Source: Guillardia theta CCMP2712
Taxonomy: Eukaryota > Protista > Cryptophyta
Assembly: GCF_000315625.1 (NCBI RefSeq)
Contig: NW_005434661.1
Span: forward strand, 663,548 to 727,547
Reading direction: 5' to 3'
DNA length: 64,000 bases
The notes under the pieces are model-generated. The model had not been told where the DNA came from, did not search any database, and worked only from the letters and a program-made list of their open reading frames with translations. The stretch's first letter is position 1. Every line of letters begins with the position of its first letter. Positions 4,484 to 45,381 of this stretch are shown one piece after another. The translations under genes were made by a program, and so were the position numbers.

Positions 4484-5166
4484 TGCCTTTCACGGTCACT
4501 CAAACACGAAACCAGCTCTTTTCGATAGATGCGAGTCACATGCACTGCTGACAGGTCAAAAATGTATTTCTTCAAGGCCTCATGGGCCCCCCCCCCCCCC
4601 CCCCCCCGTCCCTCCCCTCTCCTTGGGGTCAAACGAATAGAAAATCTGCTGTGAGATACACCCCCACCCCGGTCCATTTTGACCAGTAGTTTTGACTGCA
4701 ATAACCCATGGGCCAGAACGTGGCGATTACTACTGCAGCCATGATCGCCACGGCTCCTCCCTACACATATTTGACCACGGTCAAAATAGAGTCATTCGTG
4801 TGGTGGGGTACATGAAAGTTTCGCTCGGGGGGAGGGTGGGTTCCCGGGAGGTTCCAGGTGAGGGTGGGGTCCAAGGGGTCAAAGAGCAGGTGGTAGGGTG
4901 TGGGGGGGAGGGGATGATAAGACTGGGAGAATCGTCAGGTTCAAGTTGCGGAAGGGATGTTTGCGACCCCCAATTCAATTTGAAGTTTGAATGATTATTT
5001 TTGAAATTATTGGCTGATGATCTTTTTCGATGAGAATATTTGCTGGGTCGTTTTTATCTTTGGTTTTTTGACTTTAAGACCACCCACCCCCTCAGCAAAC
5101 TCAGAACGACCCACCCTCGTCTCCAATGTGAGTAAAACTTGTCGGGAAAAAATGGGAACAGACTGC

Positions 5167-5189
5167 ATTTTAACTTAACTTTGAGTAAA
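5167..5189. repeat. 23-bp inverted repeat, left copy (pairs with 15305-15327)
   Basis: attttaacttaactttgagtaaa is the exact reverse complement of tttactcaaagttaagttaaaat at 15305-15327. Confidence 0.9.
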
Positions 5190-6459
5190 CTAAAACTGCA
5201 ATAGGCTCCAGGTATTGTGGCGAAGAGACCCGATTGAAGAGTAGAAGTGAGAAGGGAACTGTTTACGAGAGGAGGCTGAATGACAAAGACGTGAAAGAGA
5301 TCCATCACGAGACAAAACTCACCGTGAGTGTACTATTCGATCCTGAAGAGTATCCAAGGCACGAATGCACCTTTGTTCTTGAACTAGTAGTCCAATGCAG
5401 CAAACAGATTTGTCACATCCTGAAGCTTTGCGGGTTTCGGACGTCAAAACGAATGCTTAAAGCTGCTCCTCTGGATCACGCTGATAAGAAGCTTTTTGAG
5501 ACGGGCAAGTATCCCTAGTGCGTCCGCTGAGATCTGCTGCCGACTCAGGCTTGACATTCCCTTGCCGACTCCTCGACATTCCCTTGAAAAGATGCCAAAG
5601 AATCGGAGCTGAAGCAGCAAGCATGCCACTGACCACTGAGTGATGTTGGGCAAAAGAGTGCCACCGTGTGCAACTTGGGCGCGCCAGTGGTATCATGAGT
5701 CCCTGTACCGTACTGGTACGATTCGCTGAACCCCCATAAAGATCAGGCACAGCAAGGGAAAGGACAGATCACCTTAGAAGTTGTTGACGATCCTTTTAGA
5801 GTATAGTCGAGGGGAACCACCGCTTAAGTCTGCTGCCTGCTCCTCCTCAAGGTTCATCCGATCGTACCAGTACAGGAGATACGTATGGTCACTTACCGTA
5901 TTCTACTGTAGTCCATATCAAGTATCCTCCACGACCTGCACTAGTCACTGAGTTATCTGTACTACGGAGTCACAGAGTCGGCGTGCCGCAGTGCGTGACT
6001 CAGGCTGAGGAGGCTCCACCCACCACCCCTGGCCCGGCCGGGCGGCATCATGGCCAATACTGACGTATCAGCATCGGCGATTGAGTATCCGATCCCACCT
6101 GCGCCGCGTCACGATCAACCTCGCAACTGACTGTTTGAGCAAAGAATGGAAGCCTGGCAAAAGCTTGTCCGAAGTTCATCATGCCTTATGACGATGTCCT
6201 ACATTCCATATGGAGACAGTCCTGAGGTTTTTCAGAGGACTGTGAGAGCTGCATATGATCAAGTTATTGATCTCTTGAAGGAGAAAGGTATTCACGTCTA
6301 CAGCAATCAAGCAGTCGTCAAGAGATCTGTGGAATATGTACGGTATCGGCGGGATGTCTCTCGGCCTCGCAAGACGTCTAAGGTGATCCAACTTGCTGCA
6401 AGGCGGCGACCAGGTTTGAGGATGATTTTTCAGCCTGTGCAATGATCGTGAAACCACCA

Positions 6460-6930
6460 TGACCTATCAGAGAATTGTGAGGATAGTGATGATTACGATA
6501 ATATGGAGGATGCTGATGATGATGAAGATGATGATGTCCGACGATGAGAATGAGGAAGACGATGATGATGATGATGATGTGATGGAGGGGATGATGAAAG
6601 AGATGAAGATGGAGGAGATGAAGATGATGGAGGAGGAGGAGGAGGAGGATGATGATGATGATGATGAAGGGAATGATGATGGAGAACATTATGATGGAGA
6701 TGACGACGAAGACGACGACGACGATAAACGAGATGACGATGATGGAGAATGATGATTGAGATGATTAGGATTATGGTGATGGAGGTGATGGTGATATAGA
6801 TGATGATGGAGATATTGAAGGTGATCATGATGAAGAAAGGAGATGATGGAGGGGATGATGCTGGAACAAAATGGGAAGATGATGACGATAAAGATAGTGA
6901 TGAAACATAGAGGATGCTGATGACGATGCT

Positions 6931-6965
<35 letters not shown>

Positions 6966-7530
6966 TGTGATGGAGGGATCATGAAGAAGATGAAGGAGGA
7001 GATGAAGATTATGTAGGAGATGACGATGATGATAGTGATGATAATATGGAGGATGATGGAGATGACGATGACGATGACGATGATAAAGAGGACGATAAAA
7101 ATGATCAAAATGAAAGAGGGGATGATGATGATGGTGAAGAAGAACCAGATTATGACGATAAAGATAGTGATGATAATATAAAGGATGCTGACGACGATGG
7201 AGATGGAGATAGTGATTGAGATGGAGATGATGTATGGAGATAATGAGGAGATGATGACGATGATGATGATGATGATAAAGGAAAACAAGAAGAAGATGGA
7301 AATGACGATGTTGGCAATAATGAGCAAGATGATGATGATTGTGATCATTATATACATGAATGGAGTTAACGATTAAGGATATGTTGATATTGATGAAGGA
7401 GATCATGGAAAGGATGATGATGGTGAAGAACGAGATGATGATGTTGATGATGATGAAGGAGATCATGGAGGTAATGAAGAAGAAAAAGAAGATGATGATT
7501 AAGATGGAGATGATGATGATGCAAGTGATG
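6460..7530. repeat. Degenerate (GAT/GAC/GAG)n low-complexity array with higher-order subrepeats
   Basis: ~1.07 kb of gat-rich triplets; recurring blocks such as tgacgataaagatagtgatg (~6882, ~7153) and ataatatggaggatg (~6498, ~7041); no sustained frame. Confidence 0.9.
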
Positions 7531-7887
7531 ATCGACATATCCTGGTCGTGTTTTCGCGGCAGCGCGCCAACTTTCGCTCTGCGTCGCTGTTCAGTATGGA
7601 CGGACGGTTTTGTGAGAGTGTTCATGTACTGGGCATCATCCATTCTCGTAGTCAGCATTTGTGTCGAGGTGTATCGAATGATCTAAATCATTATATTCTC
7701 CATCGAACGATGCAATCTCTGACTCAACAGGAAGCTTCATATATATTTGTTGCCTGAGCTACAATGCTCACTACAAGCCATCCACTCTTTCAGCCCACAT
7801 CAACGTCACAGATTCCATCTATCATCCTCTATGTTGTCGCCTCATCGCCTGCCTCCAGTTGCTCTTCACTCTGAGACCGTGCCTCAT

Positions 7888-9935
7888 CTACGAGCTGAAT
7901 CCTTTCTCCGCTCCCTTTAGCCATGCCACGTCTTCCATGGACAAGAACATCGCGTGCTGGGTAACGTTTTCCACTGGCTGCTTCTCCATCTCACTTGCTG
8001 TCTTGTCGTTGGTGAAAACCTGAGCTCGTCTCCAACTTGCTTTCCTCTCAAGCTCTGCGGGTAGAACAAACACAAGGCATACCCTCTCAAACTTGTTCTT
8101 GGCTCGTAGAGCTGTCAACATCTCACGTAGTGGTCCAAGCTTGATCGGATATTGTTCTGTCCGTGTCATCTGGAACATGTAGAGGACCTCCTGATCTGAC
8201 AATAAAAGCGCACTCATGCAAGGGAAGTTCAATGCCTTGGGCTTGCAATATGTGTTCTCCATGATCTTCCACTCCTTGAGTCCTGTTCTTGAAACCTCAA
8301 AGTATGCCTGTGACTTCTTGACATCCAAACTTATCACTTCCCTTGCCCCTTCATCATCCTCCCCCGACCCTAGACTGCGCAATCTGTATCTCCCTCCTTT
8401 CTTCAGCACCTCATGCGCCAAGCATTCAAAAACTAGACCCGCCCCCCAATCCCACCCAGAATCAGAGCATATGAAAACCATGCGTATAAGGGCATCCCAG
8501 TCTTTTCTGACAAGTCGGGCAAAGATCTTCTCCGCGGCCTTCTGCGAGCATGCTCGAGCGCTGATAGTCGTGTAGTCTGAGCTTGGGACCAGGTGAATCA
8601 GTCTCGATGGCGATCCCAGGTCTTCGTTCCCTGCTGCTATCATCTTTTTGTTTAGCGACGACATTGAGGTTATCGTCTGTATCGCCTGCTCAAGTGTCTC
8701 TAAAGGCCTCATTATGACATTCCTCGGTACGTTCCCCCAATCCTCGACGACATTCTTTGCTTCTTCTTCGTTCACGCGACCCCCTTGCATCTTGATGAAG
8801 ATTGACATCTCCTCATCAGTCCATGTTGGTAGAAAATATCGCCCAGCTCCATTGTTCAGAATGTCCTTGAACCCTCTGAGCTTGGGTGGAGCCAGTATGA
8901 TTGTTCTCAGCGAATCCTCTAACACGTAGTTCCCCTGACCTTCGTACAAGTCGCAGATGTACCACCCGCGGAAAGTGATGAGAAAGGGTGCAAAAACTGT
9001 CACATCCCTAAACCGACTCCATTCTGCCCCATCAAAGTACCAGTACTCGGCTCCTACCTGATAGACTACTTCCTCATCAGAGCCGAGAAGCTGAAGAAGA
9101 AAGAAGTAGGCAAAGCATGACTTCCCTATCCCTGGACTCCCTGTGAGGATGACCTGGCCGTTCTTCGGCTTCTCCGTGTCTAAGCGGAAGTACTCTGCAA
9201 TCAGCTGCTTCATCTCGAAGTAGCAATCTCGTAGGAACAGCTGATTTCCAAAAATCTCATTCCCTCCCAAGAAGGTCGAGAAGCTGACAATCTCTTGAGC
9301 TGAGTAAGTCTTGCCCGCCCTCGCAACCTTGCAAAGCTCGTTCAAGAAGGACAGCAACATGTCGCCTATCAGTCCGTCAGTGCCTTCAGTCGTCAAGGTA
9401 GTGCAATGCGAGCATCACCTTCAGGTTTTGACAGAAAGCCTTGAGGATTCTTTGAACCTTGAGCCCTCTTCACCTCGATGAGTAGATCGCGAAGCTGCTC
9501 CTCTTCCTTTCGAAGCTGCTCCTCTTCCTTTCGAAGCTGCTCCTCTTCCTTTTGAAGCTGCTCCTCCATGTCGCGATTGAGCACTTGTTTCTCTACCTCT
9601 CTGATCTGTCGGTTGACCTGATCTATCTCCTCCTCCACTCTAGCAATCTGCGCCTCTAGAGAGATCATTTCCTCACGATCTCCTCCTCGCCGTATCATGG
9701 ACATCGGCATCCTCCCGGGCACTCCCTTTCTCCTATGCTCTGCATACTCACGCATGTTGAGACTCGAAGTGCGACCTCTGCATGTACCGGCTTCATTGCC
9801 TTTGCGCATGTAGCTCGAGACAGCAGTCCTCCTCGGCGGGATGGATACATCGAGTGCGCAGGGGCAGAAGGCATGGATGGCAGGAAGGAGCATAAGGGCG
9901 ATGAGAGGCAGAGAGGGAACACCGGTTCCTACCAT
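7888..9935 (-). CDS. Crinkler (CRN)/RHS-like P-loop NTPase + restriction-endonuclease-fold protein with N-terminal bipartite presequence and coiled coil (~664 aa, 2 exons)
   Basis: LFLRDCY, Walker A ILTGSPGIGKS, WYICD, LPTWTDEE, WGNVPRNV, GLVFECLAH, YCKPKALNF, FQMT, YPIK, LVFVLP match CRN NTPase-REase motifs; a 53-bp phase-1 intron (9366-9418) joins ORF 9393..10043 (from ATG 9935) to ORF 7888..9396 in frame. Confidence 0.85.
9490..9566 (-). repeat. 21-bp coding tandem repeat (KEEEQLR heptads)
   Basis: cgaagctgctcctcttccttt x~3.5, encoding EEEQLRK coiled-coil heptads. Confidence 0.9.
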
Positions 9936-10057
9936 GGTTGGAGGTGCGCGATTTCGTGAGAAGAGAGTGTACGGAATCCACCACCCACCCTTCCATTCCA
10001 ATTTTCCCGGTAGACGCAGTACCCCAGCCACCCCCATGTTCATTAACAGGTTAAAAA

Positions 10058-10448
10058 TGGAATAAGGAACCTGCCCTGGAATAAGGAACTCAGCGGCGGG
10101 GCAGGTTCTAATAAGGCACTGAGGTTCCTTATTATTCCAGGGCAGGTTCCTTATTCCAAGGGAGGTTCCTTATTCCAAGGCAGGTTCCTTATTCCAAGGG
10201 AGGTCCCTATTCCGGGCCAAGGCAGGTTCCTTATTCCAAGGCAGGTTCCTTATCATGTATCTCCAAGGGAGGTTCCTTATTCCAAGGGAGGTTCCTTATT
10301 CCAAGGCAGGTTCCTTACTAAGTTATTCCAAGGGAGGTTCCTTATTCCAAGGGAGGTTCCTTATTCCAAGGGAGGTTCCTTATTCCAAGGGAGGTTCCTT
10401 ATTCCAAGCCTTGAAGGGAGGCGGGTTCCTTATTCCAAGGCAGGTTCC
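10058..10448. repeat. 19-bp minisatellite (aggttccttattccaagg[g/c]) with inverted copies forming a palindrome at its left end
   Basis: Roughly 15-17 direct copies at 10120-10448; two inverted copies (ggaataaggaac) at 10058-10093. Confidence 0.95.
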
Positions 10449-10459
10449 CGGTTAATCAA

Positions 10460-11010
10460 GTTCCAAGCCTCAGCCTGACAGTGAAGGCAGGCCCGGCCCT
10501 TATTCCAACCGTGACAAGAGCCCTTCGGAACCGTAACTGCCCGGCCCGGCCCTCACACACTTCGCGCCGGGCGCAGAATACCGTCGAAGCCTTGAATGCT
10601 ATGCGACAAGAGGCAGCCGCAATCAAGCAACGGCCGCAGCACTGCCGCAGCCTCCGAGATGCTGTACTCCGGGCCGACTCACTGTGCAAATCAGGCGGCG
10701 GCGGCCGCTCCTCAGGCTCCCGGGCCCTGCCACTGCCAGCCTGAGGCTGTGCACGGTGCCACGGTGCCCCATCATGGCATGACAGTGATCAGACCTCGGA
10801 AGTTCAGAGTCGGAAGTCGGAGGTTGGAAGCCAGTCACGATAGCAGAGGCCCCTAGTTCGGTGGATCGGACTGAGGCGGCCCGCCGGCCGGCGTCACCCG
10901 CCGCGCCGCGCGCCTGCCATGTCAGTGATACAGGCCGGCCCGGGTTGCGGCGTGTCCGATCAGGCGGCCCGGCGGCGGCGCTGGTACCGGCGGGCCCGGC
11001 TGGCGATGTA
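10460..11010. other. GC-rich CCGG-dense non-coding island
   Basis: Dense ccgg/ggccc/cagt words with no convincing ORF; similar islands at ~5985-6125, 33060-33550, 37200-37320 and 52105-52200. Confidence 0.55.
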
Positions 11011-12408
11011 CTACCGGTACCCCATTCAGTCAGCTCTAATAGTACCCTCTAGCACCTCCAGTACCCTCACGCAGCTCTTTTGCTTCGGTTTGAGGCAATC
11101 TTTAAAATACCCCCTGCATTGCACCCCTACCCCCAATATCGGCTCCTTCTTGCGCACATATCAATGTATACCCATATCTCCCACTTGTTATAATTGTAAC
11201 ATCGAGTAATAGTGACATACCCTTTACCCTTGATGTTGGAGGATGTTACAACTGGTTTAGATTTGAATGGACCCCTCCATGATTGACACCCAGCCCTCCA
11301 TCTTTATTCTGGTCCCCTACCCTTCACCTCTACCGCCCTTCCCCAAAAGATACCGATCTCATGGCGTGAAGTGGCTGCGTGATGGGCTGAAGAACAGCGA
11401 GGAAGAGTCAGAGGAGGGAAAGAAGATTTGATGGACTATGTGTGAAGCGAGTGGGTTGAAGAATAGGATGAAACAGGTGCAGGGAAAGCGTGCCCTTGTT
11501 GGAAAGAAGTTGGAGGGAGGCTGTCCGTTCCGCCAATCCAAAAAATGCACTGGGCAGGTGGCAATGAGGCGACGTTCCGAGAAAGGGGCAGTGAAGATTT
11601 CATGCATTATACTGAGAAAGGAGAGGTTTGTCACAAGAAGATAGGCCCTCTCGTTGTACGTGGTTGAGATATTTCCAGGCTCGCATGGCAAGCGAGTTGT
11701 GGAGGGGGAGGGAAGCCAGTCATTTTTGGTAGTCAGTTGGGAGAGGATGATTTTTTCTTCAGCCCAGCTATTCCTCTGTTTTCTTTCTGTTACCCAACAT
11801 TCACTTGCTCGCCTTCACGAGTTCAAGGATTATGTGCACCATCACTTTGTGAAATGATTTGCTGATGATTTGCGACCCATATCTTTGGCACAAGAAATCA
11901 TGCTGCCAACGACGTTTGCTCATGTCGAGAGATAAGCTCTTTACTTGGAGACCATGGATGATTGTGAATGTAGATTTTTTTATGGCTGCAATATCACTGG
12001 CATAAGAGTGGCTTGAACTACATGTGGAGCTTGGCCAACTGCTCATGATAGTTTTCGTCCTGACATGTTTATGGTGCACATATATTTATGATGTGTGAGA
12101 TGCTTGAGAGGGACTCTGGGAAAGACACGTACCTAATGGTGCCTCGAGTGTACAATGATATTTTGAAATCGAACCAGACTTTCAAAAGAGTTGATGGATT
12201 TTGTGAGCGGATGATCTAGAGAAACAAAATATTTGATGCCATTATCTTTTATGAATTTTGCCATGTAAAAAACTTCTGACGGTTATCTGACGCCCTTTTT
12301 ACAGGATTACTTGAAATGAAAACGAGCTAGAAGAAAGTGAACAAAAATACCCATACCAATGTGCTGTGTTTTCTGCCAGTTAATGTTGTTGTAACTTATG
12401 CAAGCAGA

Positions 12409-13813
12409 ATGTGCTCTCCCATCCTTGATTCCGGGAATCCTACGGGAGTTCTCAATGCTTCAGAGCAACCGGGAATTCCCTCTGGTTGGAACGGGGAAGA
12501 TCCGAAAGGAACGGATTCAAAATTGAAGATACAGACATTGAAGGAATTGAGTGAGTCCGGTGGGCAATACGTCATCGGAGAAGGGGTAGATCTGCTGATC
12601 CAAGATTGAATTGAATCTAATGCAATATTAGGTTGAATTGCAAAAATGGCTCGAGCAAGATGGGCCAACTGAAGTCACACAAACTGATTGGCGTTTGCAC
12701 AAATCCAAGATTGACTCCTCCGTTATATGCAAGCATCATTTCAGGTTTTTAGCCCGAAGTTCTTTTGCTGCTAGCGCCATGACTGTAGTATTTGCTCAGT
12801 ATGGACATCAAGAAAACTGAAAGGCGGCACCGACATATTCCTAGCGACTTGCTTGAAGTGGATTTGTCATTTTGCAAACCGGCAGTCAAAGACCGCAGTG
12901 ATCAAAGGGTCATATACGAATTGCTGTATGTTTGCAGAGGCAACAGGAAGGATGGGAGCAAATGCCAACGGAGTAGGAAGGATTTGAATGTGAGATTGCT
13001 CTTACCCTCAAATAACTGTCGTTGATGTCGATATCAGGGGAAAATTGTTGATGGATGGTGCACTGGATTAGGTCATTGCAGCCCTGGATGTGAGTTTGAA
13101 ACATGCACCTTGGCCTGCAAGGATGTTTGATTTACACCTTCTGTCAGGCTCCTGGGATCGGCGCTCAGCTGTACACTTGTGCGGCATGACGTTGAGGATC
13201 ACTGCAACAGCGCAAATGATCCTCGATGGACAAAGATGTGTTACAATCAAAGGTTGGCACGTGCCTTCTGGATCGAATGAGGTGGCCGTTATCCAATCTT
13301 GGACACAAATTCCAGCAGGTTAGAGGCTGTCAGATAACGATTTTGTATGTAACTTGGGGGGCAGGATCAAAAGATCCTGCGTGGAAAGGCAACTCTGCGT
13401 CAAGGCAGTTGGAAAAGAAGAGAAAGTTAGAACTTGCCAAGAGACCTATTGATCAAGTCATTGGGGTACTTTTTTGTTATTTCTATTCGATGTTTTGACG
13501 CTGTGCCAAGCAGTGTCAGGCTCCTGTGCAGAGTCCCAAGAGGCACAAGAGCAGGCATTCTCATTCAACTACTTTGATGCCTGGGAATCGTCGACAGCTG
13601 GCAGAGAGAGAAGTGATGATGTTGCAAGAAGAAAGCAGGAGACAGCACGAGGCAGAACTAAAGATGCAGAACGAGCTCAGGGCAAAGCTTATCAAGTCCG
13701 GAATTCACGTTGACACGGCTTCGGATGAGGCAGCTCGGGTTCAGGAATCTTCTACCACATCGACAGCATGGCATAGGTCTGCCAATTTGTTTGATCTGGT
13801 TTCTCATGGTTGA
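12409..13813 (+). CDS. Multi-exon protein with Cys/His-rich domain resembling WRKY/GCM1-fold N-terminal DNA-binding regions of Mutator-like elements
   Basis: Spliced reading YELLYVCRG..KCQR..GWCTGLGHCSPGC..HLCGMTLRI..CVTIKGWHVP, then a basic/coiled-coil tail; no transposase core seen. Confidence 0.45.
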
Positions 13814-14769
13814 ATTACCTTCCGCAGTTCTGTTGCGTGCTTGAGAGTTTTGGCATGGTTAGAAAGTGCTGAACAGATGAGCAAGGAGGACGAGAGCAAG
13901 GACTCTTCGAAATTCCCCTCCAGTGTTTGAAGAATTCCCCATCAGACCAGGCTCTGTCGCCGTCTGAATGAGACCCAAAATCCCCGATTTCGTCATCTTG
14001 TGTACCATATTTAATTATTTTAGCTGGTCTATGATCGTTCTGTACTGCTTGTAATACTTAGATTGGAATTTCTTTAGACAAAACTAAAGCAAAATGGTTC
14101 TGGGAAAGGCGGGGGTCGGAGAGGGGTCAAAAAGATGTAATAGGGTCTGAAAGCATCTTCAATTATGTCCACTCATTGCTTTCGCCTGCAACACGCGTCT
14201 GAGAAAACCCAGAAATTCGAGCACACCATGCTACCTGAAGAAAGAGACTTCTAGGAATGGAAAAGTTTGCAAAATCTTGTCCAGGCAGTAATCCCTCCTG
14301 ACATTAAAATCAGTACAGGTTCTGCCATCATCTTCAGCTCCGCGGGACCTCGAATCCCAGGATATCGTGAAGGCATATTCAGGATACAAGAGCATGCCAG
14401 TGGGCCCACCTGAACAGCTCATTCAGATCGATACCACATGAAGCTGCGTTCGAACTTTACCAACTATCAGCAGATTCCGGACAAACGCCCTCCCCCGTCT
14501 TGGCGAAAAAAATGCTTGCGACGCTATCAGTGCAAGCATGCCTACGGTGACCTATCCCAGTCCGCGCATGAGAGCAGGTACATGTAATACTCTCCTCACC
14601 TTCGTTCTGTTCTCTTTCCTCCAGTGCGACAGAGAGAACAAAGACTATGCCAATCAAATTTGTCAAGCAATGTGCAGGCAAGTTACATGATGGCAAATGT
14701 CCCTGGCAGTGACGGGATGACTCGAATAAAGACATTGGTCGTCTGCTCTGTTTGCTCCACTGCTTCCTG

Positions 14770-17137: not shown

Positions 17138-18910
17138 TCAGTAGTTGTAGTGCTTGCAAATGTTCTCCCCATATGAGGCCTCCCCCGCACGCCATGCATC
17201 CTGATCGCTGCTGCCCGTGCTCGCATATGCTGCCTCCCCCGCACGCCATGCATCCTGATCGCTGCCGCCCGTGCTCGCATATGCTCCCCTCCCCGCACGC
17301 CATGCATCCTGATCGCTGCTGCCCGTGCTCGCATACGGCTGGCCTCCCCCGCATTCCTTGCATCCTGATCGCTCCTTGCATCCTGATCGCTGCCGCCCGT
17401 GCTCGCATATGCTCCCTCCCCCGCACGCCATGCATCCTGATCGCTGCCGCCCGTGCTCGCATATGCTGCCCCCCCCGCATTCCTTGCATCCTGATCGCTG
17501 CTGCCCGTGCTCGCATATGCTGCCTCCCCCGCATGCCTTGCATTGTGATCGCTGCTGCCCGTGCTCGCATACGCTGCCCCCCCCGCACGCCATGCATCCT
17601 GATCGCTGCCGCCCGTGCTCGCATACGCTGCCTCCCCCGCATTCCTTGCAACGTGATCGTCTTCTCCCGTGCTCGCATATGCTTCCTCCCCCGCATCTCT
17701 TGCATTCTGATCGCTGCTGCCCGTGATCGCACAGGCTCCCTCCCCCACATTCCTTGCAACGTGATCGCTGCTGCCCGTGCTCGCATATGCTGCCTCCCCC
17801 GCACGCCTTGCATCGTGATCGCAGCCGCCCGTGCTCGCATATGCTGCCTCCCCCGCACGCCATGCATCCTGATCGCTGCCGCCCGTGCTCGCATACGCTG
17901 CCTCCCCCGCACGCCATGCATCCTGATCGCTGCTGCCCGTGCTCGCATACGCTGCCTCCCCCGCATGCCATGCATTGTGATCGCTGCCGCCTGTGCTTGC
18001 ACATGCTGCCTCCCCTGCATTCCTTGCATCCTGATCGCCTTCTCCCGTGGTCGCATATGCTGCCCCCCCCACATTCCTTGCATCCTGATCGTATTCTCCC
18101 GTGCTCGCATATGCTGCCTCCCCCGCATGCCTTGCATTGTGATCGCTGCCGCCCGTGCTCGCATATGCTGCCTCCCCCGCATGCCTTGCATTGTGATCGG
18201 CTTCTCCCGTGCTCGCATATGCTGCTCCGCCCACACGCCATGCATCCTGATCGCTGCTGCCCGTGCTCGCATATGCTGCCTCCCCCGCACGCCATGCATC
18301 CTGATCGCTGCCGCCCGTGCTCACATATGCTGCCTTGCCTGCATTCCTTGCATCCTGATCGCTGCCGCCCGTGCTCGCATATGCTGCCTCCCCCGCATTC
18401 CTTGCATTGTGATCGCCTTCTCCCGTGCTCGCATATGCTGCCTCCCCCGCACGCCATACAATCTGATCGCCTTCTCCCGTGCTCGCATATGCTGCCTCCC
18501 CCGCATGCCATGCATTGTGATCGCCTTCTCCCGTGATCGCATATGCTGCCTCCCCCGCATTCCTTGCATCGTGATCGCCTTCTCCCGTGCTCGCATATGC
18601 TGCCCCCCCCGCATTTTTTGCATTGTGATCGTCTTCTCCCGTGCTCGCATATGCTGCTTCCCCCGCATGCCTTGCAACGTGATCGTCTTCTCCCGTGCTC
18701 GCATATGCTGCCTCCCCCGCATTCCTTGCATCCTGATCGCCTTCTCCCGTGCTCGCATATGCTGCCCCCCCCACATTCTTTGCATTGTGATCGGCTTCTC
18801 CCGTGCTCACACACTCCCTTTTTTCCTTTTGTCTCTCTTTTCGTCTCCTCTCCTTGTCTATCGTCTGCCCTTCCTCCCTCTCGCCCTCTCTCATCTTCCT
18901 CTGAGCCCAT
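17138..18910 (-). CDS. Zinc-binding tandem-repeat protein (18-aa CxxCGGGSICEHGRxRS units, ~30 copies), frameshifted near C-terminus
   Basis: ORF 17138..19075 holds 27 in-frame CEHG units; ~3 more continue in another frame after indels near 17340; 54-bp DNA unit. Confidence 0.85.
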   Translation of the reverse strand: MGSEEDERGREGGRADDRQGEETKRETKGKKGVCEHGRSRSQCKECGGGSICEHGRRRSGCKECGGGSICEHGRRRSRCKACGGSSICEHGRRRSQCKKCGGGSICEHGRRRSRCKECGGGSICDHGRRRSQCMACGGGSICEHGRRRSDCMACGGGSICEHGRRRSQCKECGGGSICEHGRQRSGCKECRQGSICEHGRQRSGCMACGGGSICEHGQQRSGCMACGRSSICEHGRSRSQCKACGGGSICEHGRQRSQCKACGGGSICEHGRIRSGCKECGGGSICDHGRRRSGCKECRGGSMCKHRRQRSQCMACGGGSVCEHGQQRSGCMACGGGSVCEHGRQRSGCMACGGGSICEHGRLRSRCKACGGGSICEHGQQRSRCKECGGGSLCDHGQQRSECKRCGGGSICEHGRRRSRCKECGGGSVCEHGRQRSGCMACGGGSVCEHGQQRSQCKACGGGSICEHGQQRSGCKECGGGSICEHGRQRSGCMACGGGSICEHGRQRSGCKERSGCKECGGGQPYASTGSSDQDAWRAGRGAYASTGGSDQDAWRAGEAAYASTGSSDQDAWRAGEASYGENICKHYNY

Positions 18911-18999
18911 GTTCCTTCTTCTCTTGCGCGCCTGATCGCTGTATCCTACTGTGGCTGACATGGCGGACATGGTTCTCCGCGGTCCTGTACAACTCACCC

Positions 19000-19170
19000 C
19001 CCTGATGACCATTGGGGGTGGGGTACTGAGCAGGGTACTGGGTCGGACACTATGTGAGGATGGGTAGTCAGGCACAAAAAGGATGGGTGGGGACCTTGTG
19101 AAAATTCAAAAAGAGAGTCCACGGGGTGGGTACTTGTTGCAGTGAGTCGAGTATGGGGGGGTAGGGGTAT
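19000..19170. promoter_or_regulatory. Putative bidirectional promoter with GGGTGGGGTAC-type motifs
   Basis: Cluster of ggggtggggtac/gggtac/gggtag words between two divergent genes; the same words recur upstream of other genes. Confidence 0.4.
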
Positions 19171-19209: not shown

Positions 19210-22200
19210 ATGACTGGGGCAGCGCCGAGCGCAGAAGATGTCGAAGATTATGAGGACGAGTTTGAGGAGGAAGAGGAGGAGAATAAGAACGCAATGAATA
19301 AGGAGAAGGAGAAGGAGAAGGAGAAGGAGAAGGAGAAGGAGAAGGAGAAGAAAGAGGTCAAGAAGGATGATGGTAAGTCTTACAAAATCCAGCTGTATGA
19401 AGGACAAGATCTCAAGGCCACAGTATCTGTTACTTCAGAAACGAAATGGAAGTCTTTATCAAGGACGCCAACGACCAGACGCGTGTGGTGTATTTCGAAT
19501 ATGATGACAAGTATGGGGGAGACAAGGAACAAACGTTTGTTTGCCAGAAGCAAGAGGACTGGGAGGATGTTTTGGCGATGCTGGATGAAGATCAGGAGTA
19601 TCTCAAGGGAGAACTGCCGGTCAGGCTGAAGAAGGACTTTTGCTTCAGCCTGTTTGAGGGGGAAAAGCTCCTCAAGGAGGTGTTCGTCCCAGAGAAGTGC
19701 AAGTGGGAGGACTTTCTCAAGATAGCGAAAGATTCCCTCAAGTTTGCGATTGATGGTTTCATCTATGACATCGAGACAGGGAAAGACCCAGAATATGACA
19801 TAGATTGCAAGACCAAGGATGAATGGCTGGATGTCATAGATATGATGAATGATGATTTCCACGAGCTGTACGGATGTTTAGAGGTCGACATTTTGAGGGC
19901 GAAGGCGGGTGCAGAGCAGCACGGTGAGAAGGATGCAAAGAAGGATGCGCAACCCAAGGTCGTGGAGGTTGAAAGCTCAGTCATCCCTGCGGAGGAAACG
20001 AACAGGACTTTGCATGATCTGGTAGGGCAGGCCGCTGCCAAGCTTCCCGCTGCTCGAGACCAAATCCTGACAGACTGTCTCACACACGAAGACGTCAAAA
20101 CAGGAGTTATACCTGCTCTGAAGCTCAACCAGATCTTGCAATCGAATCTTGGGTGTTCCGAAACAGTAGCACAAGAGATTCTGCAAAAATTTCCAAGGTG
20201 TATACATGGGCCTCGGCATGAAAACGTTGATTTCAGAATGTGGGCTCGGAATGCTCGTATCTTTACAGATCATGACAAGGACGTCTTCAAACAGCTACAT
20301 GACAAGAACATGCAGAGAGCAAGATTTTCGCTCCTGCAGAATATGAAGCGTACGAGAGAAATTCTGAAAGAGGATGAACAGGCTTCGCTATCACAACTCG
20401 AAAACTCTTTGAGGCAGCATGGCGGCGACATTGTGAGCTCTGAATTGGTCCGGCCGTTGATCGAGTCCTTCAGCTCACTGCAGAAGATACAAGGTTCTAA
20501 GTTCAGGGAATGCATCACCGGCCTGAAGATCACTGACTGCCACCGACTGGTCATGGAAAGCGTTGACTATCACATGATGCTACACTTTTCGGAATCTGCG
20601 AACACACTCATTGAGGAAAGCAAGAAGTTGGATGAGGATGCTGTCATCTCTGTCGACAAGTTCTGCGAGTTGTTTGGTAATGTACCCCAAGACTATCTTT
20701 CCATCATCTTTGGTCTGGAGCAGAAACCGAAGAGTGCAAAGATGCCTTGCTCTGTCCTGTTCCCGTACATTGCAAAAACACTCTCTGCGGTAACAGATGA
20801 AGGTCAAGTCAACGCCAAGAAAGTAGCGCAAGATCTGGTCATTCTGCACGCTTCAGAGATCGATGCGATACAAAGATGCAGCTCTCTGAAGCTGCAGAAG
20901 GCCAGACGTAGAATTCTGGTCAACCGGGACGAGATCAAAAAGAAGGTTACCTCCAAAGATGACGAGGACCAGTTTTTCGATATTCTGACCGAACAGGATG
21001 CAAAATGGCGCCTAGAAGATGATGAGGCAGACTTGTTGATAGGGGATACACTCAAGTTGGATCAGGATGGCAACAAAACACGCGATGTCTTAGAATATAT
21101 GGAGGGCCTTACGTTTAAAGACTTATGGTCAAAGGATCTCAAACCCTCCTTGATCGAAGTCTTGAATAATTTCGATGAGATCGAAGGCAAGATCATTTCT
21201 GCGAACGGCACCAACTACTACATGGAAATCGGCTCGCTGGAAGACATTTTATCAGAGGCTGGCTTCAACGAAGCGGCCATTGATGACTTGGTTGAAGCTG
21301 TAAATGCCTCCGGGTTCGCCAAGTATTTTCCATGGAGAACATTTCTCTACCTCAAGTTTCAAGTGCTAAAGCCATCGGAACTTGAGATATACTCGTCGTC
21401 GTCTGATGCTGACTCCCAGAAAGGAAGGAGAACCTTGCTAGCGCACCTTGCGCAATTACACCTGAGTATGATGCAGGCAGGTTCGACGGAGAGCGCGAAG
21501 GTCGAGGAAGTCAAGAAGTACCTGACTGGTCATCTGAGCTTATCTAAAGAGCAAACAGCAGATATCATTCGTGGCTGGACTCTGAATCATGTTAAGGGAG
21601 ATATCATCAGGCTTGGCACGTTGGCTGAGTGGCGAATCTGCTCATTATCGACTGTTTGCAACGATTCAGCAATGCAGGATTTTGTGAAGCACAGGATTGA
21701 AATGCGAAAACTTCTCGATGACGAGCCTTCCTCCGATAAGATCTTCTCCTCCGTCCCTGTCAAAAATGTTGCCAAAGAACTCTACCAGCTCGGGATGGAT
21801 CCAAGGATGGTGGAAAACCTCCTTGCTAGGATGGAGACTACCGATGACGGGTCAGCGGTCTTCTTGAATCAGTCGGCCTTGCGGTTCGGAGTACTCACTG
21901 ATAGAGAGGAAGCGTCGCTGCGTGCAGTCTTGGACGATCGTCTGCAGCTGGCTTGCAGGACTCTAATGAGAGTCTCGCCCAAGGGAATCAAAGTTACCGC
22001 GGATGAGGCGTCGACTTTCGCTGAGAGGGTCAGCTCCGCCCTGCACGAGGACGAGGCTGTCAGGAGCGGGGCGGTCAAGAGAGAGTCTCTGGACGAGGGT
22101 GTAGCCCTGCTGGTGTTGTCGTACCTCAAATCTGCCGACCAACCTTTAGATTCGCTTTCTTCAGACGCCCTGCTCTCCTCCTTGCGCAACGACATGATCG

Positions 22201-23390
22201 CAGTTGATGCCGCTGACTTCAGTGAGGTCGGCATCTCGTCCAGACCCTCGGCGAAGCCTCAGGGTCAGCCGGGTGGATCCGACGAGAACTACATGCTCAA
22301 CCTCAGTGAAGCGCAGAGGATATTCCACGAGAAGATCCTGAGGCCGAGGACTCCCAGCATGCAGGACCTGATTGAGATCATGAGAGGGATGCCGGCGAGC
22401 GTGGGCCCGTCCCCTCTGAGAGAGGAGGTGAGGATTGGAAACAACTTGCCGTCCGCTGCTCTCAACATGGCGATGTCCGCCTCGAACGAGGGCACGAGAG
22501 GGAGCGTGTCGCTTCTGTCAGTTCAGATCATGAATGCCGACGGAGTCCCCAATGTCTCGGCAAACAAGTTTCGCATCCTAGGCCGTCGTGCTCGCGTCTG
22601 CCTCGTCGACGTGGCTCAGCGAAAGTTTGTCGGCGGGTCCCACATTGTTCCGATCTCTAACAAGCGAGACAAGGGCGGGATCAAATGGGAGTTCTCCAAG
22701 AAGGAGGAAACAAACCCCTTCGTGCTCCGAGCGCCGTTGAACGCAGGGTAGGTGAACATGTGCGTGCATGTCTCTGACAAGCTCTTGTTGTAGCTTGCAG
22801 CTCTATGTGGAGTTGTCGTCGGTGTGCAAGAAGGTCGGGTCAACAAGAGAAGGGCAGGATGCCCTGCACAAGGGAGAGATCAAGGAGCTTTCCCTTGGCT
22901 TTGCGTGTCTGGAGCTGAACCAAGAGGTCCTTAAGCTCAAAGGAAAAGTTCACCTCAAACTCTTCGGAGGGACTCCGTGGGGATCCAAGGTGAGGAGGGA
23001 GCCTGGTAGCTTCGTTGGATGACACGCTGGATGGCAGGAAGTGACGGCAGCGGAGAAGAAAGGGTTCTTCTCCCGTTTCAGGAAGGCGAAGGCGGAGATC
23101 GTTCTTAGCGTCTCCAGCTTGAAGGGAGCATTCAAGGCTCTTCCTAACTTGTTGGTCTCCCCCACCGCCAGCCTCGAGGCCCTCGAGCAGTTCAGCCTGC
23201 TGACCCTGGAGAGCAACAAGGCCTCTCAAGGCGCAAGCAAGGTGTTGAAATGTGACGTGGCGTCGGCTACGGTAGATGTCAACGCTCTCCCCTCCCCGTC
23301 TCATCATGGCCTGCCTGCAGTTCCCCGCCATCATGGACACGCCAGACCTCATGTTCCAGTTCGTGCGGAAGTGGAAGGTGAGGACGGAGG

Positions 23391-29465: not shown

Positions 29466-29967
29466 GTTGAAGAATCTCTGCCTTGCTCTCTAATGCCTAC
29501 CTTGTCCTCTCTGTCTCTGCTTGTTCTCTCTGTCTCTGCTTGTCCTCTCTGTCTCTGCTTGTCCTCTCTCTCAGGTTTGCGCTCTCTCGCTCTGGTCGGC
29601 AGCAAGCGATTGCTCCGAACCGGCGGCGCACCCCTTGAATGTTGTGCGGAATGGAGGCTGAGGCAGGCTTGTTTCAGAATTATCCCCTTGGAATTGAAAC
29701 TTTATTTATATCATTGAAAAGTGACGAAAACATCTTGAGTTTTTGTGAAATTATTTTGTACTGACACCGAACCCTTGTACGAATGTGAATAAAATTAAAA
29801 TATAAACCATCTGGTAGTATTCATGTAAAACCTTATAAGTTTAAACATTTGTTACAAAACTTTTATAACTTATATATAGTGTGTACTGCATGTTCCGCAA
29901 AAGTAGTACTGGGAGTCCCTTTAACCGTTACATGTCGGTTATATCGAGTAGAAAGGCGGGAACTACC

Positions 29968-32900
29968 ATGCCGCGCTTGTACGTCATGGTGAACCTGCTA
30001 CGCAAACACCTCCACGTGAGCGAGCAGACGCCGGTGGTAGAGCTGATCAAGGAGGGATACACCATCTGCAACTGGAGCTACTCCCCCGATGAAGGGATAG
30101 GCGACCCCGTCACCAAGTTGTACAAAGCGATCGTCCCCTCCAGCGAACGTAGGAAGTACGAAGAATCTGGGGAAGCGTCGGGGGACCCTCAACCACCCGA
30201 TGCTGGGCATGGTCCAGCCACGGCTTCACCGTCGTCGTCGGCAGCGGCAGCGGCAGCGGCAGCGGCGAAGGCATCACCAGCAGCGCAAGCTGCATCATCG
30301 TTGTCCTCGCCATTACCAGCACCTTCATCACTAGCGTCATCTGTGGCACATCCTCCACATCAATCGCCACTCTCAGCTCAACATGTCCCCAGGGAAAGCC
30401 CTGGATCCATCGATGAGGACACAAGCACATCTGCAAGCAAGCGTGCTCGATCCGATCCGAACAGGATCGATTTGACTCGGGTCAGCACTGCTAAGGAAGC
30501 AGAAGAAGTAGCCAACAGTTCCTCGCATACGTTAGACCATTCCTCCTTCTTTGTGGATCGCAGGTGGAAAACAAGACCCGAATGCACCGACTACATAAAG
30601 AAGATCAACATCCTGCATGGCGCCCGGCAGGTTTCGTGCAACTCTGAGAACAAAATGCACGGCAAACGTGGGTACTTCATGAAATGCACTTCTCCCGGCT
30701 GCAGGTGACGAAGGACTATTTCATACTTGTGACTGACATTGTATGGACAGATATGAGCTCCGGGTCAAGAAGAAACAGTCCTCAGACCCTTCGAAATCAT
30801 ACTTCTGGATCTGTGAAGAAGACAGCGTAATGTCGCACGAGCCCATTCTTTGCGCCTCCAAAGCAAAGGCCACGGTCAGCTTCCTTTTGAAGAATGGATC
30901 GTTCCGCTCCTGGATACAGGCTGCTGCTGCAGATGGTGCTAATGGTGCTCGGGTAACAGCCAAGGAGCTGCAAGATAAGCTGCAGCTGGAGCTGGGCGTT
31001 CAGGCGACAATTCCTGTGATCTATGGCGCAAGGAAATGTCTGGAGTCGGGGACATGGATGGAGTACGAGAGTTCTTTCAATCTTCTGCCCGCATGGCTCT
31101 CGGCCTATTGCAAGTGCAATCGCGGCAGTTTCTATATCTGTAATCCTCCACTTGGCGAGGGCGGCGCAGAGGGGCCACCGATGCTCGAGCAGTGCATGTT
31201 GGCGAATGGAACTGTGCTGCAAATCGTCAAGCAATGCGGATTGAGAGTGTTGAGGCAGGTGATTTTTGTCATGGTTGTTTTGCTTCCACCTTTGATCTTG
31301 CATACAGCGTTTCTCTCGCTTCAAGCACAGATGGTTCTCGGGCAAAGCTTTGGTGGTTGACGGATACCTGCCCGACGGATCGATCCTTCCGATTGCTGCT
31401 GCTATCTTTCCTGGTTGGCATGCACGTGAGGAAACAGTAGACGCTGAGACTGCAGCGAATGCAAGCTTTGTGTGGGAGGAGCTAAAGAAGTCTGATATGG
31501 GAGAGTGGCTTTTGCCAAGTGCTGGCTCTTTGACAGTCATGACGGACCTTGATTCTGCGAGCCTTCCTGCAATCAAGCAGAGTCTGCCTCATGCAAACGT
31601 CATATACTGTTGCAGGCTGCTGCTTTCGAATGTGAACGCATTCTGTAGAAGTATGCCATTCGTTGATTGAAATTGAATTGTTGGTGACTGTGACATTTGC
31701 AGAAAAGGCGCGAGCGCAACTGCAAACCATCTCCAATGACGAGAAACAGTCCGCAGAAATCTTATTTTGGAAAGCTCAGGTAAGGTTGGAGAATCGCTTT
31801 GGTTCAAGTTTCCTCATGTATTGCGTGTGCAGGCAGCGGACAACCTGCAAGATTTTTTTTCCAAGATGGACGCGATTGGAGAAGCGAATAGAACTGCAAA
31901 GGATTACCTTGACAAAGTAGATCCTATTTATTGGGTAACCAAGCGCAAAATGATGGAATGGCGAGATACTTACATCGCGATGGCAGGCAAATTTCGCGCA
32001 GGCTAAAAGTCACATTCCCCGGGAGGAGGACGAACAGTGCTCCATCAGAGCTGTCAGGACGTACGGGATCAACTTCCAACACCCTGAACAAAGTGAACCC
32101 CCTCGGCCGAACGAAGTCTTGCCCAAGGACGTCTCCCCTATGAGGTTCTTCCAAGAGCTGGCAGAGCAATGGTTGGAAGCTATGAACAAGCTGCACGCTT
32201 CGTACCTGCAACTGACACAGAAGCTCCCGGACGGCAGCGACCATGTTTTCATTTCAGAGAGCTTGACGCACGAGTACACCAGGCACTACAACCAACATCT
32301 GCGCATGAATGTGCCACAAAGAGCATCCAGTGAGCAGATGGTCTTAGTTCGTGCCATGGGGGAAAATGGGATGTTGGAGTCTTTCTCTGTGAATTTCAGA
32401 GAAAAGTATTGCTCTTGCTCCTTCTGGCAGCTTACCTCTCGGCCGTGCGCGCATGCTATGGCTGCTTCGCGAAAACTTGGGATAGCAGCAGGAGACAATC
32501 GCCTGATGATCACGAGCTTGTATGACAAGGTGTGGCTAGCAAGCAACTTCACAGAAGCCCCGGCGCTGAAAGACTTGTTCTTCGGATATATCCCGGACAC
32601 CAAAGACGTGCTTCCCCTGGCTCAGGGGTACCGTCCCCCACCAGTGGATCATTTTGTACTCGGGGAGTCACATGGAAAGTCGTCGGAACAAGAACGGCGA
32701 CCTCGACCGCCTGCTAAGCAGGCAAGGGAGCAGCTGATGGACGGAGATGAAGTGGACCCGTCGGCGCAGGATTCGTCCCAGGGATCAAAGAAGAAGATTT
32801 GTCGTTCATGCGGACAAGCTGGGCATAACGCGCGAACTTGCGATGGTACGGGGAAGCTAAGGGAGGGAACTAGGAGGAGGAAGCAATCCGTCAAGAAGAA

Positions 32901-33006
32901 TGTCAGCGAGCCTGAGCAGTCGAGGTCTCAAGATGCTGACGGTGAAGATGTGCAAAGAAGCTCTCCGGCCGCTCATGAAGCCGGGCCTGTGACGCAGGAG
33001 CCTTAG
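29968..33006 (+). CDS. Mutator (MULE) transposase-derived protein: MuDR-like domain, MULE core, SWIM zinc finger, CCHC knuckle
   Basis: YFMKCTSPGCRYELRV..H..C; SILPIA, AET, VMTD, AIKQSLPHANVIYCC; DPIYWAKSH..TYG; SWIM YCSCSFWQLTSRPCAH; CRSCGQAGHNARTC; short introns (e.g. 31935-32001) keep the frame. Confidence 0.85.
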
Positions 33007-43365: not shown

Positions 43366-45381
43366 TTATTCGATCTTGAACTCTTTCGCAAACTCCGTCA
43401 CCACCTCAGTCTCTAAGATGTGACTGCGGTCGTTCTTGACGGGCGGGAGGCAGTAATATCGCAACCTGCCGCTGCTCTACTTGTTAGACGAGGTCACCCA
43501 TCCACGTGGTCCTTGCCTGGTCCAGTCCTTGAGCACTTGACGCGCGGCCGTCTCAACATCAGTCTCTCCTCCCCTGAACAGCTTCCCTCGTTTCTGCCAA
43601 CGTGTCAAGTGGTCGCGTGAAGAGCCGTGCATACTCTTGCGAGCGCCTGAAGGAATTCCTGGTAGTTGCTGAGAAATGTCAGGGAGCGGATGAGCAGTCA
43701 ATGGGCGTACCTGAACTTGTCTATCCCGTACTTCTGCATCAAGACTTCATGTCCGCACCTTGGCAAGGTCTCAGGTGAAAGCGGAGAGAACCTGAGAGCT
43801 ACTTGTCGATGATATCTTGCATGGGAGCAAGGAGGTCCTTTATCTTCGCTCAATGTCAGTGCTAATCTCTCGTAACCCGGAGCTAGCCGACCTTGTCGAT
43901 GGGGATGCAGTTTCTCAGGACCAGCTGAGCTTCCGAGAGGCCTGCCTCTATGACAACCCCCGGGCAATCGATCAGGGTTATTCCTCGCTCTAAGTGCAAG
44001 CTCTTCGAGCGTGTGAGGCCCCACCAGTCGAGGAGTCAAGAGGAACCTGGAGGGTCTTGGTGACCCCCGCTCTGTCTCCCGTCTGAGCCGCTCGAGTGCG
44101 CAGGAGGCTGTTGATGATAGAACTCTTACCCACGTTCGGCATCCCCAGAACTCCCACGTTGACCCTCGCCTAAGGATACCAAGTGAATCCCCACGGTCCG
44201 TCTGGAAAGCGTTCAAACCTTCCCGCCAAAACTTGAATCTTGTCTGGTCAAGGCCTTGATCATATTCACGAGCTCTTCTGCTCCGACGCAGTTCCCAGTC
44301 ATCAACTGCCCGTGCGTTGCGTTGCTGACTTGGATTCTAGAATGGACGTAGGAGTCTCCTCTCCGAACTTGAGTGGCGGCCTTGAAAGCTGCGACGTGAT
44401 TTTCTTCTTTGAGGTAATTCATCCAGTCGTCAAGTACGTTCTGTTTGCTTCAATTAGAGGCACAAACTGATAATGAAAGAAGCTGTACCTTGGGCACTAG
44501 GTCGATTTTGTTCAGAACGAGTATGATCTTCAGCTCAGGGCGTTTCTTGTGGATGAAATCTTCAATCTGCATCAACCAACGGCAGTGAGAAGCTGTAGAA
44601 GAAGCTAGTCAACACCTGCTTTGTACGGCATCCGTTAGGATCTCTGGCGTCAAGCACCTCCAGGATCAGATCTGCTTCATTCAGGATGCGATTCAGCGCC
44701 CCCGTGTACATCCTGCGAGAGCCATCACGGAAGCCTCCTGTCTCTGCCTCTGTCTCGGTCTGATGCACGTATGACTCGTAGTCCACCTCTTGTCGCTGCA
44801 TTCCATTCGCTTCCTTGCCCGATTCCAACCCTTCCTCGGCGATCAACCCTTCCCCCACATCTCCTTCCTCCCTGTCTGCACTCCTTCCAAAGCCCTGGAA
44901 GGAACCGGAGAATTCAAATCCCGACCGATGCTTCTGTCTCAGCACATTCACATCCACTTTCTGCGATGCCTTGTTGGGCCCTTTCTTCTCCTCCTGCTTC
45001 TTCTTCATCAGGATGCGTTTACGCTTCTCAGCTTCTGCCTCGAGCTTGCGCTGATAATGCTTCCCTTTCTTGGTACCGCCTCCTCGCAGTACAGCAACGT
45101 TGAGGAAGACCGCAGCTCTGCCGCAATGGCGGAGGGAAACCTCTTCTACTGTAGCCTGACAGACGCAGAGCACAAGAGCGGCAACGAGGCTCAAGGACCA
45201 GCTCACACCCCGACAGCGGGACACCCGCTGGTGGCCGGGAAGACCCAACGTGATGACGAGGCGACGAGGCTTGAAACAGACGATGCTCGACCTGGACAGG
45301 ATGTGAGGTTCTTAGCAAACGAGTCAACTCAGCTATCACACACGGTACTCTGCTTGAGAGCTTTACACGTGCCCCGACCAT
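43366..45381 (-). CDS. Nug1/GNL3 (nucleostemin-like) circularly permuted GTPase with N-terminal hydrophobic leader and LRGG motif
   Basis: [73 protein letters not shown]; G4-G1-G2-G3 order. Confidence 0.9.

What the first reader, a model, noticed from the sequence alone, without database searches (positions are those of the whole stretch)
7888..9935. Crinkler-like NTPase-REase effector carrying a complex-plastid import presequence
Seen: a 53-bp intron (9366-9418) fuses the CRN/RHS-type NTPase-nuclease ORF in frame to an exon beginning MVGTGVPSLPLIALMLLPAIHA-FCP. An S/R-rich, acid-poor stretch follows, ending ..MSMIRRGG, then a coiled coil. Known: in cryptophytes and other red-complex-plastid algae, a signal peptide cleaved before Phe plus a transit peptide directs proteins to the plastid stroma; CRN proteins normally have cytosolic or secretion header domains and act as toxins/effectors. 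Inference: a conflict-system nuclease scaffold has been rerouted into the endosymbiont compartment, possibly for host control of plastid or nucleomorph nucleic acids.
Basis: partly seen in the sequence, partly recalled or inferred. Interest (0 to 1): 0.8.

Follow-up and report, generated by a model that had tools for sequence, protein, structure and literature searches.

The report
Plastid-addressed Crinkler-type protein, dead nuclease
An alga's spliced gene for a toxin-like ATPase-nuclease protein starts with an address predicted to send it into the plastid, but this copy has likely lost its DNA-cutting site, so the real lead is its family of copies, several of which carry predicted signal peptides and keep the cutting residues.

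Summary
The gene is real. It is Guillardia theta GUITHDRAFT_103492, whose public model has the same intron but starts 60 codons later. The 53-nt intron is skipped in contigs of four RNA-like runs (three studies) and retained in two DNA runs. The core is a Crinkler-RHS (CR) NTPase-REase: 7 of 49 scanned relatives carry the Crinkler header, and the C-terminal model matches restriction-endonuclease folds at modest Z (up to 6.2). The N-terminus scores as a stromal presequence on the ASAFind matrix (7.66; transit score 5.10, cut-off 2); SignalP could not be run. Three corrections follow. (1) This copy lacks the conserved nuclease Asp (Asp in 127 of 131 relatives) and His (120 of 128), so it likely cannot cut nucleic acids. 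(2) It is not a one-off: two sister loci share the Phe-type header, and six older lineages carry a predicted signal peptide plus an LxxRGG-like motif with weaker plastid scores; others have no signal. (3) Phe at +1 points to the stroma, not the nucleomorph compartment. Translation from the upstream ATG and localisation are unproven. Verdict: a new header variant of a known kind, with an interesting family and a likely decaying copy.

The parts
9870..9935 (-). Predicted ER signal peptide, aa 1-22; start ATG at 9935
   Evidence: Hydropathy 2.41; start context has A at -3 and G at +4, the best of the four Met codons checked; 20 of 22 and 19 of 22 residues identical in sister ORFs P0190 and P0191. 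SignalP not run.
9681..9869 (-). Transit-peptide-like stretch, aa 23-85, starting Phe-Cys-Pro and ending in an RRGG motif
   Evidence: ASAFind 7.66 total, 5.10 transit; 13 K/R against 4 D/E; a sister locus's RNA-like contig spans 9587-9874 without an intron.
9419..9680 (-). Coiled-coil-like region and linker, aa 86-172, with a 21-nt repeat (9490-9566); end of exon 1
   Evidence: Only weak coiled-coil-type Pfam hits, all under cut-off; tandem repeat; window-identical RNA-like contigs 9418-9670.
9366..9418 (-). 53-nt GT-AG intron
   Evidence: Skipped in X1, X2, X7 and X3; retained in X12 and X13; paralog L001 has a GT-AG stretch at the same position.
8461..9365 (-). P-loop NTPase (Walker A 9141-9118, Walker B 8958-8941, conserved Arg motif 8739-8722) and helical region; conserved residues intact
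   Evidence: Lys, Asp and Arg match the family consensus in 168 of 169, 157 of 167 and 168 of 171 rows (rows partly redundant); nSTAND3 E 6e-4, under cut-off; Foldseek top hits are STAND and AAA+ ATPases.
7888..8460 (-). Restriction-endonuclease-fold (REase) domain and stop; Glu486 and Gln571 kept, Asp replaced by Ser557 (8214-8212), His replaced by Tyr578 (8151-8149)
   Evidence: Model pLDDT 89.7; VIA-align rows dominated by restriction-fold nucleases, Z up to 6.2; column counts.
7548..7887 (-). Likely 3' untranslated region
   Evidence: Window-identical contig 7548-7881 in RNA-like run X7; contigs give no strand or end.

Best explanation
This is a spliced member of a multi-copy Guillardia theta family of Crinkler-RHS-type NTPase-nuclease proteins; its N-terminus is predicted to route it through the ER into the plastid stroma, but its nuclease site is likely dead. 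Shown: the splice, the 664-aa frame, CR-type homology, the two substituted nuclease columns, and sister loci with the same header. [quoted passage not shown] The family likely carried a signal-peptide-plus-RGG header early, and one young subclade changed to the Phe type. This copy most likely is a decaying duplicate that is imported but cannot cut; a role as a non-cutting partner of active sisters is possible but untested.
For: Splice. CR core; UniRef names two paralogs 'Crinkler (CRN) family protein'. Presequence: ASAFind 7.66/5.10; the high-confidence class had specificity 0.97 and sensitivity 0.70 in G. theta (PMC4329603 passage). The same header is open in P0190 and P0191 (P0190 scores 7.41). 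A sister's RNA-like contig reaches 9874, past the Phe codon. Dead site: Asp in 127 of 131 and His in 120 of 128 representatives with a residue there; run X3 holds a contig with the window's base in the Tyr codon (depth 53.5 total, 30.1 other). This copy has the longest end branch (0.13) of its 7-row subclade.
Against: ASAFind needs a SignalP-positive call, which could not be run. The n-region has no basic residue and the sisters' hydrophobic core is weaker (1.94-1.99). The matrix is diatom-trained, and a chance stretch scored higher by score alone (8.05). The public model starts at Met61. Close paralog P0020 has no signal and diverges exactly after the RGG, and complete transcript ORFs P0008/P0026/P0027 lack a signal, so the header is not essential to the family. 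The Ser557 codon is not confirmed by any listed independent contig. Fold Z-scores are middling (under 8). The frame is intact and listed paralog differences show only weak purifying selection (omega about 0.5-0.7 on 54 sites), which does not prove decay.
Confidence: 0.45

Rival explanations
1. The header is vestigial here. The mRNA or ribosome starts at Met43 or Met61, giving a cytosolic or nuclear CR protein as in the public 604-aa model.
For: P0001, P0021 and P0195 are modelled from internal Met codons. P0020 and P0008/26/27 lack any signal and have basic NLS-like clusters. Sister ORF P0194 has the header without a Met at its start.
Against: ATG 9935 has the best start context. The 85-codon header is open in three loci with only a 3-nt in-frame indel. 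A sister's RNA-like contig reaches 9874.
Confidence: 0.25
2. The protein enters the ER but stops short of the stroma. Like the older family members with a signal peptide and RGG motif, it would be secreted as a conflict effector or held in the ER or periplastid compartment.
For: Six older lineages have a predicted signal plus RGG motif with best ASAFind totals of only 2.1-5.1, including complete transcript ORFs P0182 and P0018. CR proteins are proposed conflict effectors (PMC5289972 passages).
Against: This header has Ala-1, Phe+1, Pro+3 and a long basic stretch, unlike those members. RGG is absent from the sisters that share this header.
Confidence: 0.22
3. One reading: this copy is an active nuclease that the host sends in to control plastid or nucleomorph nucleic acids.
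For: Stromal presequence score; intact NTPase motifs and two retained nuclease columns, Glu and Gln.
Against: Asp and His both replaced. Phe+1 bypasses the nucleomorph compartment. No substrate or localisation data.
Confidence: 0.05

Closest known systems
CR (Crinkler-RHS-type) proteins with NTPase + HTH + REase (Zhang et al. 2016, seen only through the review PMC5289972)
   Same: Variable header plus NTPase-REase core; gene-family expansion; header exchange at a sharp boundary; presence in a free-living eukaryote.
   Different: Header is a predicted signal peptide plus transit-like stretch, not a Ubl or helical header; the review passage says true signal peptides were ruled out in CR headers and only one Angomonas header is hydrophobic. 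This copy lacks two nuclease residues.
Oomycete and fungal CRN effectors (Pfam PF20147 header)
   Same: Homologous C-terminal module; 7 of 49 scanned relatives carry PF20147, with E down to 1.8e-44 to the family profile.
   Different: No PF20147 or LXLFLAK header here; the host is not a pathogen.
Bipartite ASAFAP-type targeting sequences of diatoms and cryptophytes
   Same: Hydrophobic core, Ala-1, Phe+1, Pro+3, basic and acid-poor stretch; transit score 5.10 against cut-off 2.
   Different: Ile at -3, no basic n-region, a long 63-aa stretch; cargo is a conflict-type protein; not localised.
AACRNL (PMC12957317, passages seen)
   Same: CRN-derived gene repurposed and expanded in free-living eukaryotes with an altered header.
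   Different: That family has an ADP-ribosyltransferase domain and a degenerate Ubl header in animals; no signal peptide or NTPase is mentioned (0 occurrences).
Prokaryotic STAND/REase defence proteins (Avs3, Avs4, Lamassu LmuA)
   Same: Restriction-fold nuclease similar in structure (LmuA Z 6.2, rmsd 4.5, 136 aligned; Avs3 Z 5.5, rmsd 4.5, 132 aligned); NTPase resembles STAND/AAA+.
   Different: Domain order is reversed relative to Avs (nuclease C-terminal here), no sensor repeats, eukaryotic gene with an intron.

Membership tests
CR (Crinkler-RHS-type) NTPase-REase proteins | P-loop NTPase domain with intact Walker motifs | tested here: met
CR (Crinkler-RHS-type) NTPase-REase proteins | C-terminal restriction-endonuclease fold | tested here: met
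   Confident model (pLDDT 89.7); most top VIA-align rows are restriction-fold nucleases, though Z is at most 6.2; Foldseek gave no hit at E 0.001.
CR (Crinkler-RHS-type) NTPase-REase proteins | Homology to proteins with Crinkler or RHS annotation | tested here: met
   7 of 49 scanned hits carry PF20147 and 1 of 49 PF07999 RHSP (49 mostly longer hits picked from the 150 listed).
CR (Crinkler-RHS-type) NTPase-REase proteins | Variable N-terminal header exchanged between copies | tested here: met
   P0020 is 84-85% identical in the core but differs upstream of 9681.
Active CR-REase nuclease | Conserved Glu, Asp, Gln, His columns of the nuclease | tested here: not met
   Glu and Gln kept; Asp column holds Ser and His column holds Tyr. 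That these columns are catalytic is inferred from conservation and recalled PD-(D/E)xK knowledge.
Canonical CRN effector | Ubl header with LXLFLAK / PF20147 | tested here: not met
   No PF20147 hit on exon 1 or on three paralogs.
Canonical CRN effector | Delivery into a host cell and toxicity | not testable with these tools
   Needs experiment.
Stroma-targeted protein (bipartite ASAFAP presequence) | SignalP-positive signal peptide | not testable with these tools
   Only hydropathy 2.41 and a small residue at -1.
Stroma-targeted protein (bipartite ASAFAP presequence) | F/W/Y/L at +1 and transit score above 2 | tested here: met
   Phe23; 5.10.
Stroma-targeted protein (bipartite ASAFAP presequence) | Presequence lies at the true translated N-terminus | tested here: inconclusive
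   Best start context; sister RNA-like contig reaches 9874; this copy's own 5' end is not shown.
Periplastid/nucleomorph-targeted protein | Non-aromatic residue at +1 | tested here: not met
   Phe at the best-scoring site in this copy; rule from PMC4494062. Several older family members do have non-aromatic residues at plausible sites.

The most novel reading that the evidence does not exclude
G. theta has turned a Crinkler-type nuclease family into a host-encoded arsenal for its endosymbiont. Older members with a signal peptide, RGG motif and basic NLS-like cluster go to the periplastid compartment and nucleomorph; a young Phe-type subclade goes to the plastid stroma. Sisters with intact Asp and His (P0003, probably exon 2 of P0191; P0195) would cut organelle or invading nucleic acids, and this copy is a dead or regulatory subunit.
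Probability: 0.2. Interest if true: 0.85.

Novelty: new variant of a known kind. Interest (0 to 1): 0.55.

Why it matters
CR proteins are described as lacking true signal peptides and acting in nuclei or cytosol. A cryptophyte expansion with predicted ER signals, and in one subclade a stromal transit peptide, would be a new delivery route for this toxin class. It would make host policing of plastid or nucleomorph DNA testable with a simple GFP reporter. The single copy in this window matters less, because it likely cannot cut.

Tried and rejected
No whole genome was held, so no genome-wide count; family counts come from protein databases. No run is on record as an RNA holder; X1, X2, X3, X7 are 'RNA?' guesses, taken as mRNA-derived because they hold the spliced joint. 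No window-identical RNA-like contig was listed 5' of 9670 in X1, X2, X7, and depth there in X3 equals the sister contig alone; tables were cut and contigs show no 5' ends, so this is not used as evidence. Raw-read run X17 gave 27 short, mostly paralog-like reads and none at the joint. The X1 loose end at 9681 is not in the window, so it is not an upstream exon; it matches paralog P0020. A search for the header's donor among longer proteins found only P0001 (weak). The Atlas gave nothing usable. PDB sequence search gave only weak McrB hits. The metagenome scan gave 15 loci, of which only L001 is a close family member. Diversifying selection was not supported: 34 non-synonymous and 20 synonymous of 54 listed differences (pooled paralogs, truncated tables). 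No terminal repeats that would mark a transposon around the gene were seen in 4500-14000, and 5 flanking ORFs had no Pfam hit. My recollection that Huesgen 2013 describes an RGG motif was wrong (0 occurrences). Zhang 2016 is not held. Four look-ups of earlier findings returned nothing. No complex prediction was run, as no binding claim is made.

Full report
Identity. The 490-aa exon-2 ORF matches P0001, GUITHDRAFT_103492 of Guillardia theta CCMP2712, at 100%. That public model uses the same intron but starts at Met61 of the 664-aa frame, so the presequence is not annotated. No whole genome was held.

Intron. The GT-AG intron 9418-9366 gives 664 aa with one terminal stop; other GT-AG pairs would also keep the frame. 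Contigs of X1, X2 and X7 show the joint 'skips 53', as does X3; these four runs come from three studies. The X7 contig across the joint has 0 differences from the window. X12 (9300-9448) and X13 (9292-9519) run through the intron with 0 differences. X8 and X17 showed no joint. Paralog L001 has a GT-AG stretch at the same position. The splice is therefore real and this copy is most likely transcribed; the runs' RNA status is a guess supported by the joint.

Presequence. I took the ASAFind matrix from Table S2 of PMC4329603 (supplement file 8) and scored it in a script. A22|F23 gives 7.66 in total and 5.10 for the transit part, against a cut-off of 2. It ranks 2 of 585 ATG-started open stretches in the window by score alone and is the highest of 3 of 585 that pass a hydrophobic-core filter. 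The paper's passage gives specificity 0.97 and sensitivity 0.70 for high-confidence calls in G. theta, and 755 such proteins among 24,840 genes, but that class needs a SignalP call that I could not run. ATG 9935 has A at -3 and G at +4, the best of four Met contexts. Two sister ORFs, P0190 and P0191, have the same header (20 and 19 of 22 signal residues identical) with a weaker hydrophobic core. A third, P0194, has it without a Met at its start. DNA contigs show a sister alike up to 9953, and an X3 contig of that sister spans 9587-9874, past the Phe codon. This copy's own 5' end is not shown. PMC4494062 (passages) states that aromatic +1 means stroma and non-aromatic +1 means periplastid compartment, so the nucleomorph is not the predicted destination.

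Core. A profile of 10 family sequences hit 3,366 representatives at E 0.001 and 94 at 1e-30. Of 49 scanned hits, 7 carry the Crinkler header PF20147 and 1 the RHSP domain; named examples are from Diversispora, Phytophthora and Polysphondylium. UniRef names two G. theta paralogs Crinkler family proteins. The NTPase model resembles STAND and AAA+ ATPases. The C-terminal model (pLDDT 89.7) aligns best to LmuA (Z 6.2, rmsd 4.5, 136 aligned), N.BspD6I (5.7, 4.5, 128) and the Avs3 N-terminal domain (5.5, 4.5, 132). These Z values are middling and Foldseek found nothing at E 0.001, but the lists are dominated by restriction-fold nucleases. This fits the NTPase + HTH + REase architecture described in PMC5289972 (passages). 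Zhang 2016 itself was not held, so its subfamily numbering is untested.

Walker A Lys, Walker B Asp and the conserved Arg are intact. In the nuclease, Glu486 and Gln571 are kept, but residue 557 is Ser where 127 of 131 representatives have Asp, and 578 is Tyr where 120 of 128 have His (145 representatives, rows with a gap in the column left out). All 9 close homologues have both. X3 holds a contig with the window's base in the Tyr codon; the Ser codon has no independent confirmation. The copy has the longest end branch, 0.13, in its subclade. Calling these columns catalytic is inference from conservation. The copy likely cannot cut.

Family. Database look-ups name 17 distinct JGI loci, several fragmentary. 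In a tree of 28 rows the 21 rows of the cryptophyte-containing clade (some unnamed) group at 100/100 (rows hand-picked, midpoint root, long outgroup branches). Six lineages spread over the deep branches have a hydrophobic N-terminal stretch followed by an LxxRGG-like motif: P0017/P0018, P0182, L001/P0033, P0015, P0196 and P0014. P0018 is labelled a complete transcript ORF and P0182 is a full-length transcript ORF. Their best ASAFind totals are 2.1-5.1; three have a weak Phe option. All but P0014 keep Asp and His. The Phe-type header is seen only in the youngest 7-row subclade (100/100). There P0195 links the header's end to a domain with Asp and His (with a 3-residue insertion), and P0191 and intact P0003 share a longest-contig length of 6578, which suggests but does not prove one gene. 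RGG is unique to this copy within that subclade. P0020 lacks a signal and diverges right after the RGG; P0008/26/27 also lack one. The signal-plus-RGG header is not specific to this family: a GNL3/Nug1-like GTPase in this window has one too.

Mechanism. Most likely the protein is made from ATG 9935, enters the ER, loses residues 1-22, and is carried by the Phe-led basic stretch into the stroma. There the coiled coil and NTPase would assemble but the nuclease would not cut. All of these steps are inferred. I give this 0.45; an internal start 0.25; ER, secretion or periplastid retention 0.22; an active nuclease in this copy 0.05.

Novelty. The review passage says CR headers lack true signal peptides, although PMC6131194 (passages) treats some fungal CRNs as having predicted ones. 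Ten library searches (listings seen) found no paper joining Crinkler with Guillardia or describing this RGG header. Passages of PMC3774753, PMC2222254, PMC6332867, PMC12136025 and PMC12957317 did not either. The library lacks most subscription papers, and Zhang 2016 and its supplements, which I could not see, may list these proteins. Curtis 2012 was seen only as cited. I rate it a new variant of a known kind, interest 0.55: the family-level routing idea is testable and surprising, but rests on predictions, and this copy is likely inactive.

Noticed in passing
window 44562-45311 (-), further exons likely to about 43500: A GNL3/Nug1-like nucleolar GTPase (PDB hit GNL3, E 1.3e-5) has a hydrophobic signal-like stretch, non-aromatic +1 and a VLRGG motif just before the mature part. 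It is a candidate periplastid/nucleomorph ribosome-biogenesis factor; no in-frame Met lies before it in this exon.
   Followed up: partly
P0014, P0015, P0017, P0033, P0182, P0196 and window 45089: A signal-like stretch followed about 20-35 residues later by an LxxRGG motif that resembles the ubiquitin C-terminus (resemblance recalled); often followed by basic NLS-like clusters. Not found described in my searches; may be a cleavage signal.
   Followed up: partly
window 10058-10448: A 19-bp tandem array (about 13 copies) with two inverted units at its left end, 120 nt upstream of the start codon.
   Followed up: no
window 17138-19105 (-): A 655-codon frame made of about 27 copies of a 54-nt unit coding Cys-His-Cys-Cys repeats, likely zinc-binding; no Pfam hit.
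   Followed up: partly
window 29869-33006 (+): Frames with a SWIM zinc finger (E 1.4e-7) and a zinc-knuckle-like motif, suggesting a Mutator-like transposase (recalled architecture).
   Followed up: partly
window 6465-7532: About 1 kb of degenerate GAT repeats with scattered stops just downstream of the gene.
   Followed up: no
window 5189-6445 (+): Broken frames whose motifs recall the C-terminal part of a Penelope-like retroelement (recalled); no Pfam hit in the three pieces scanned.
   Followed up: partly
window 19401-22751 (+): An uninterrupted 1116-codon frame with no Pfam hit at E 0.01.
   Followed up: partly
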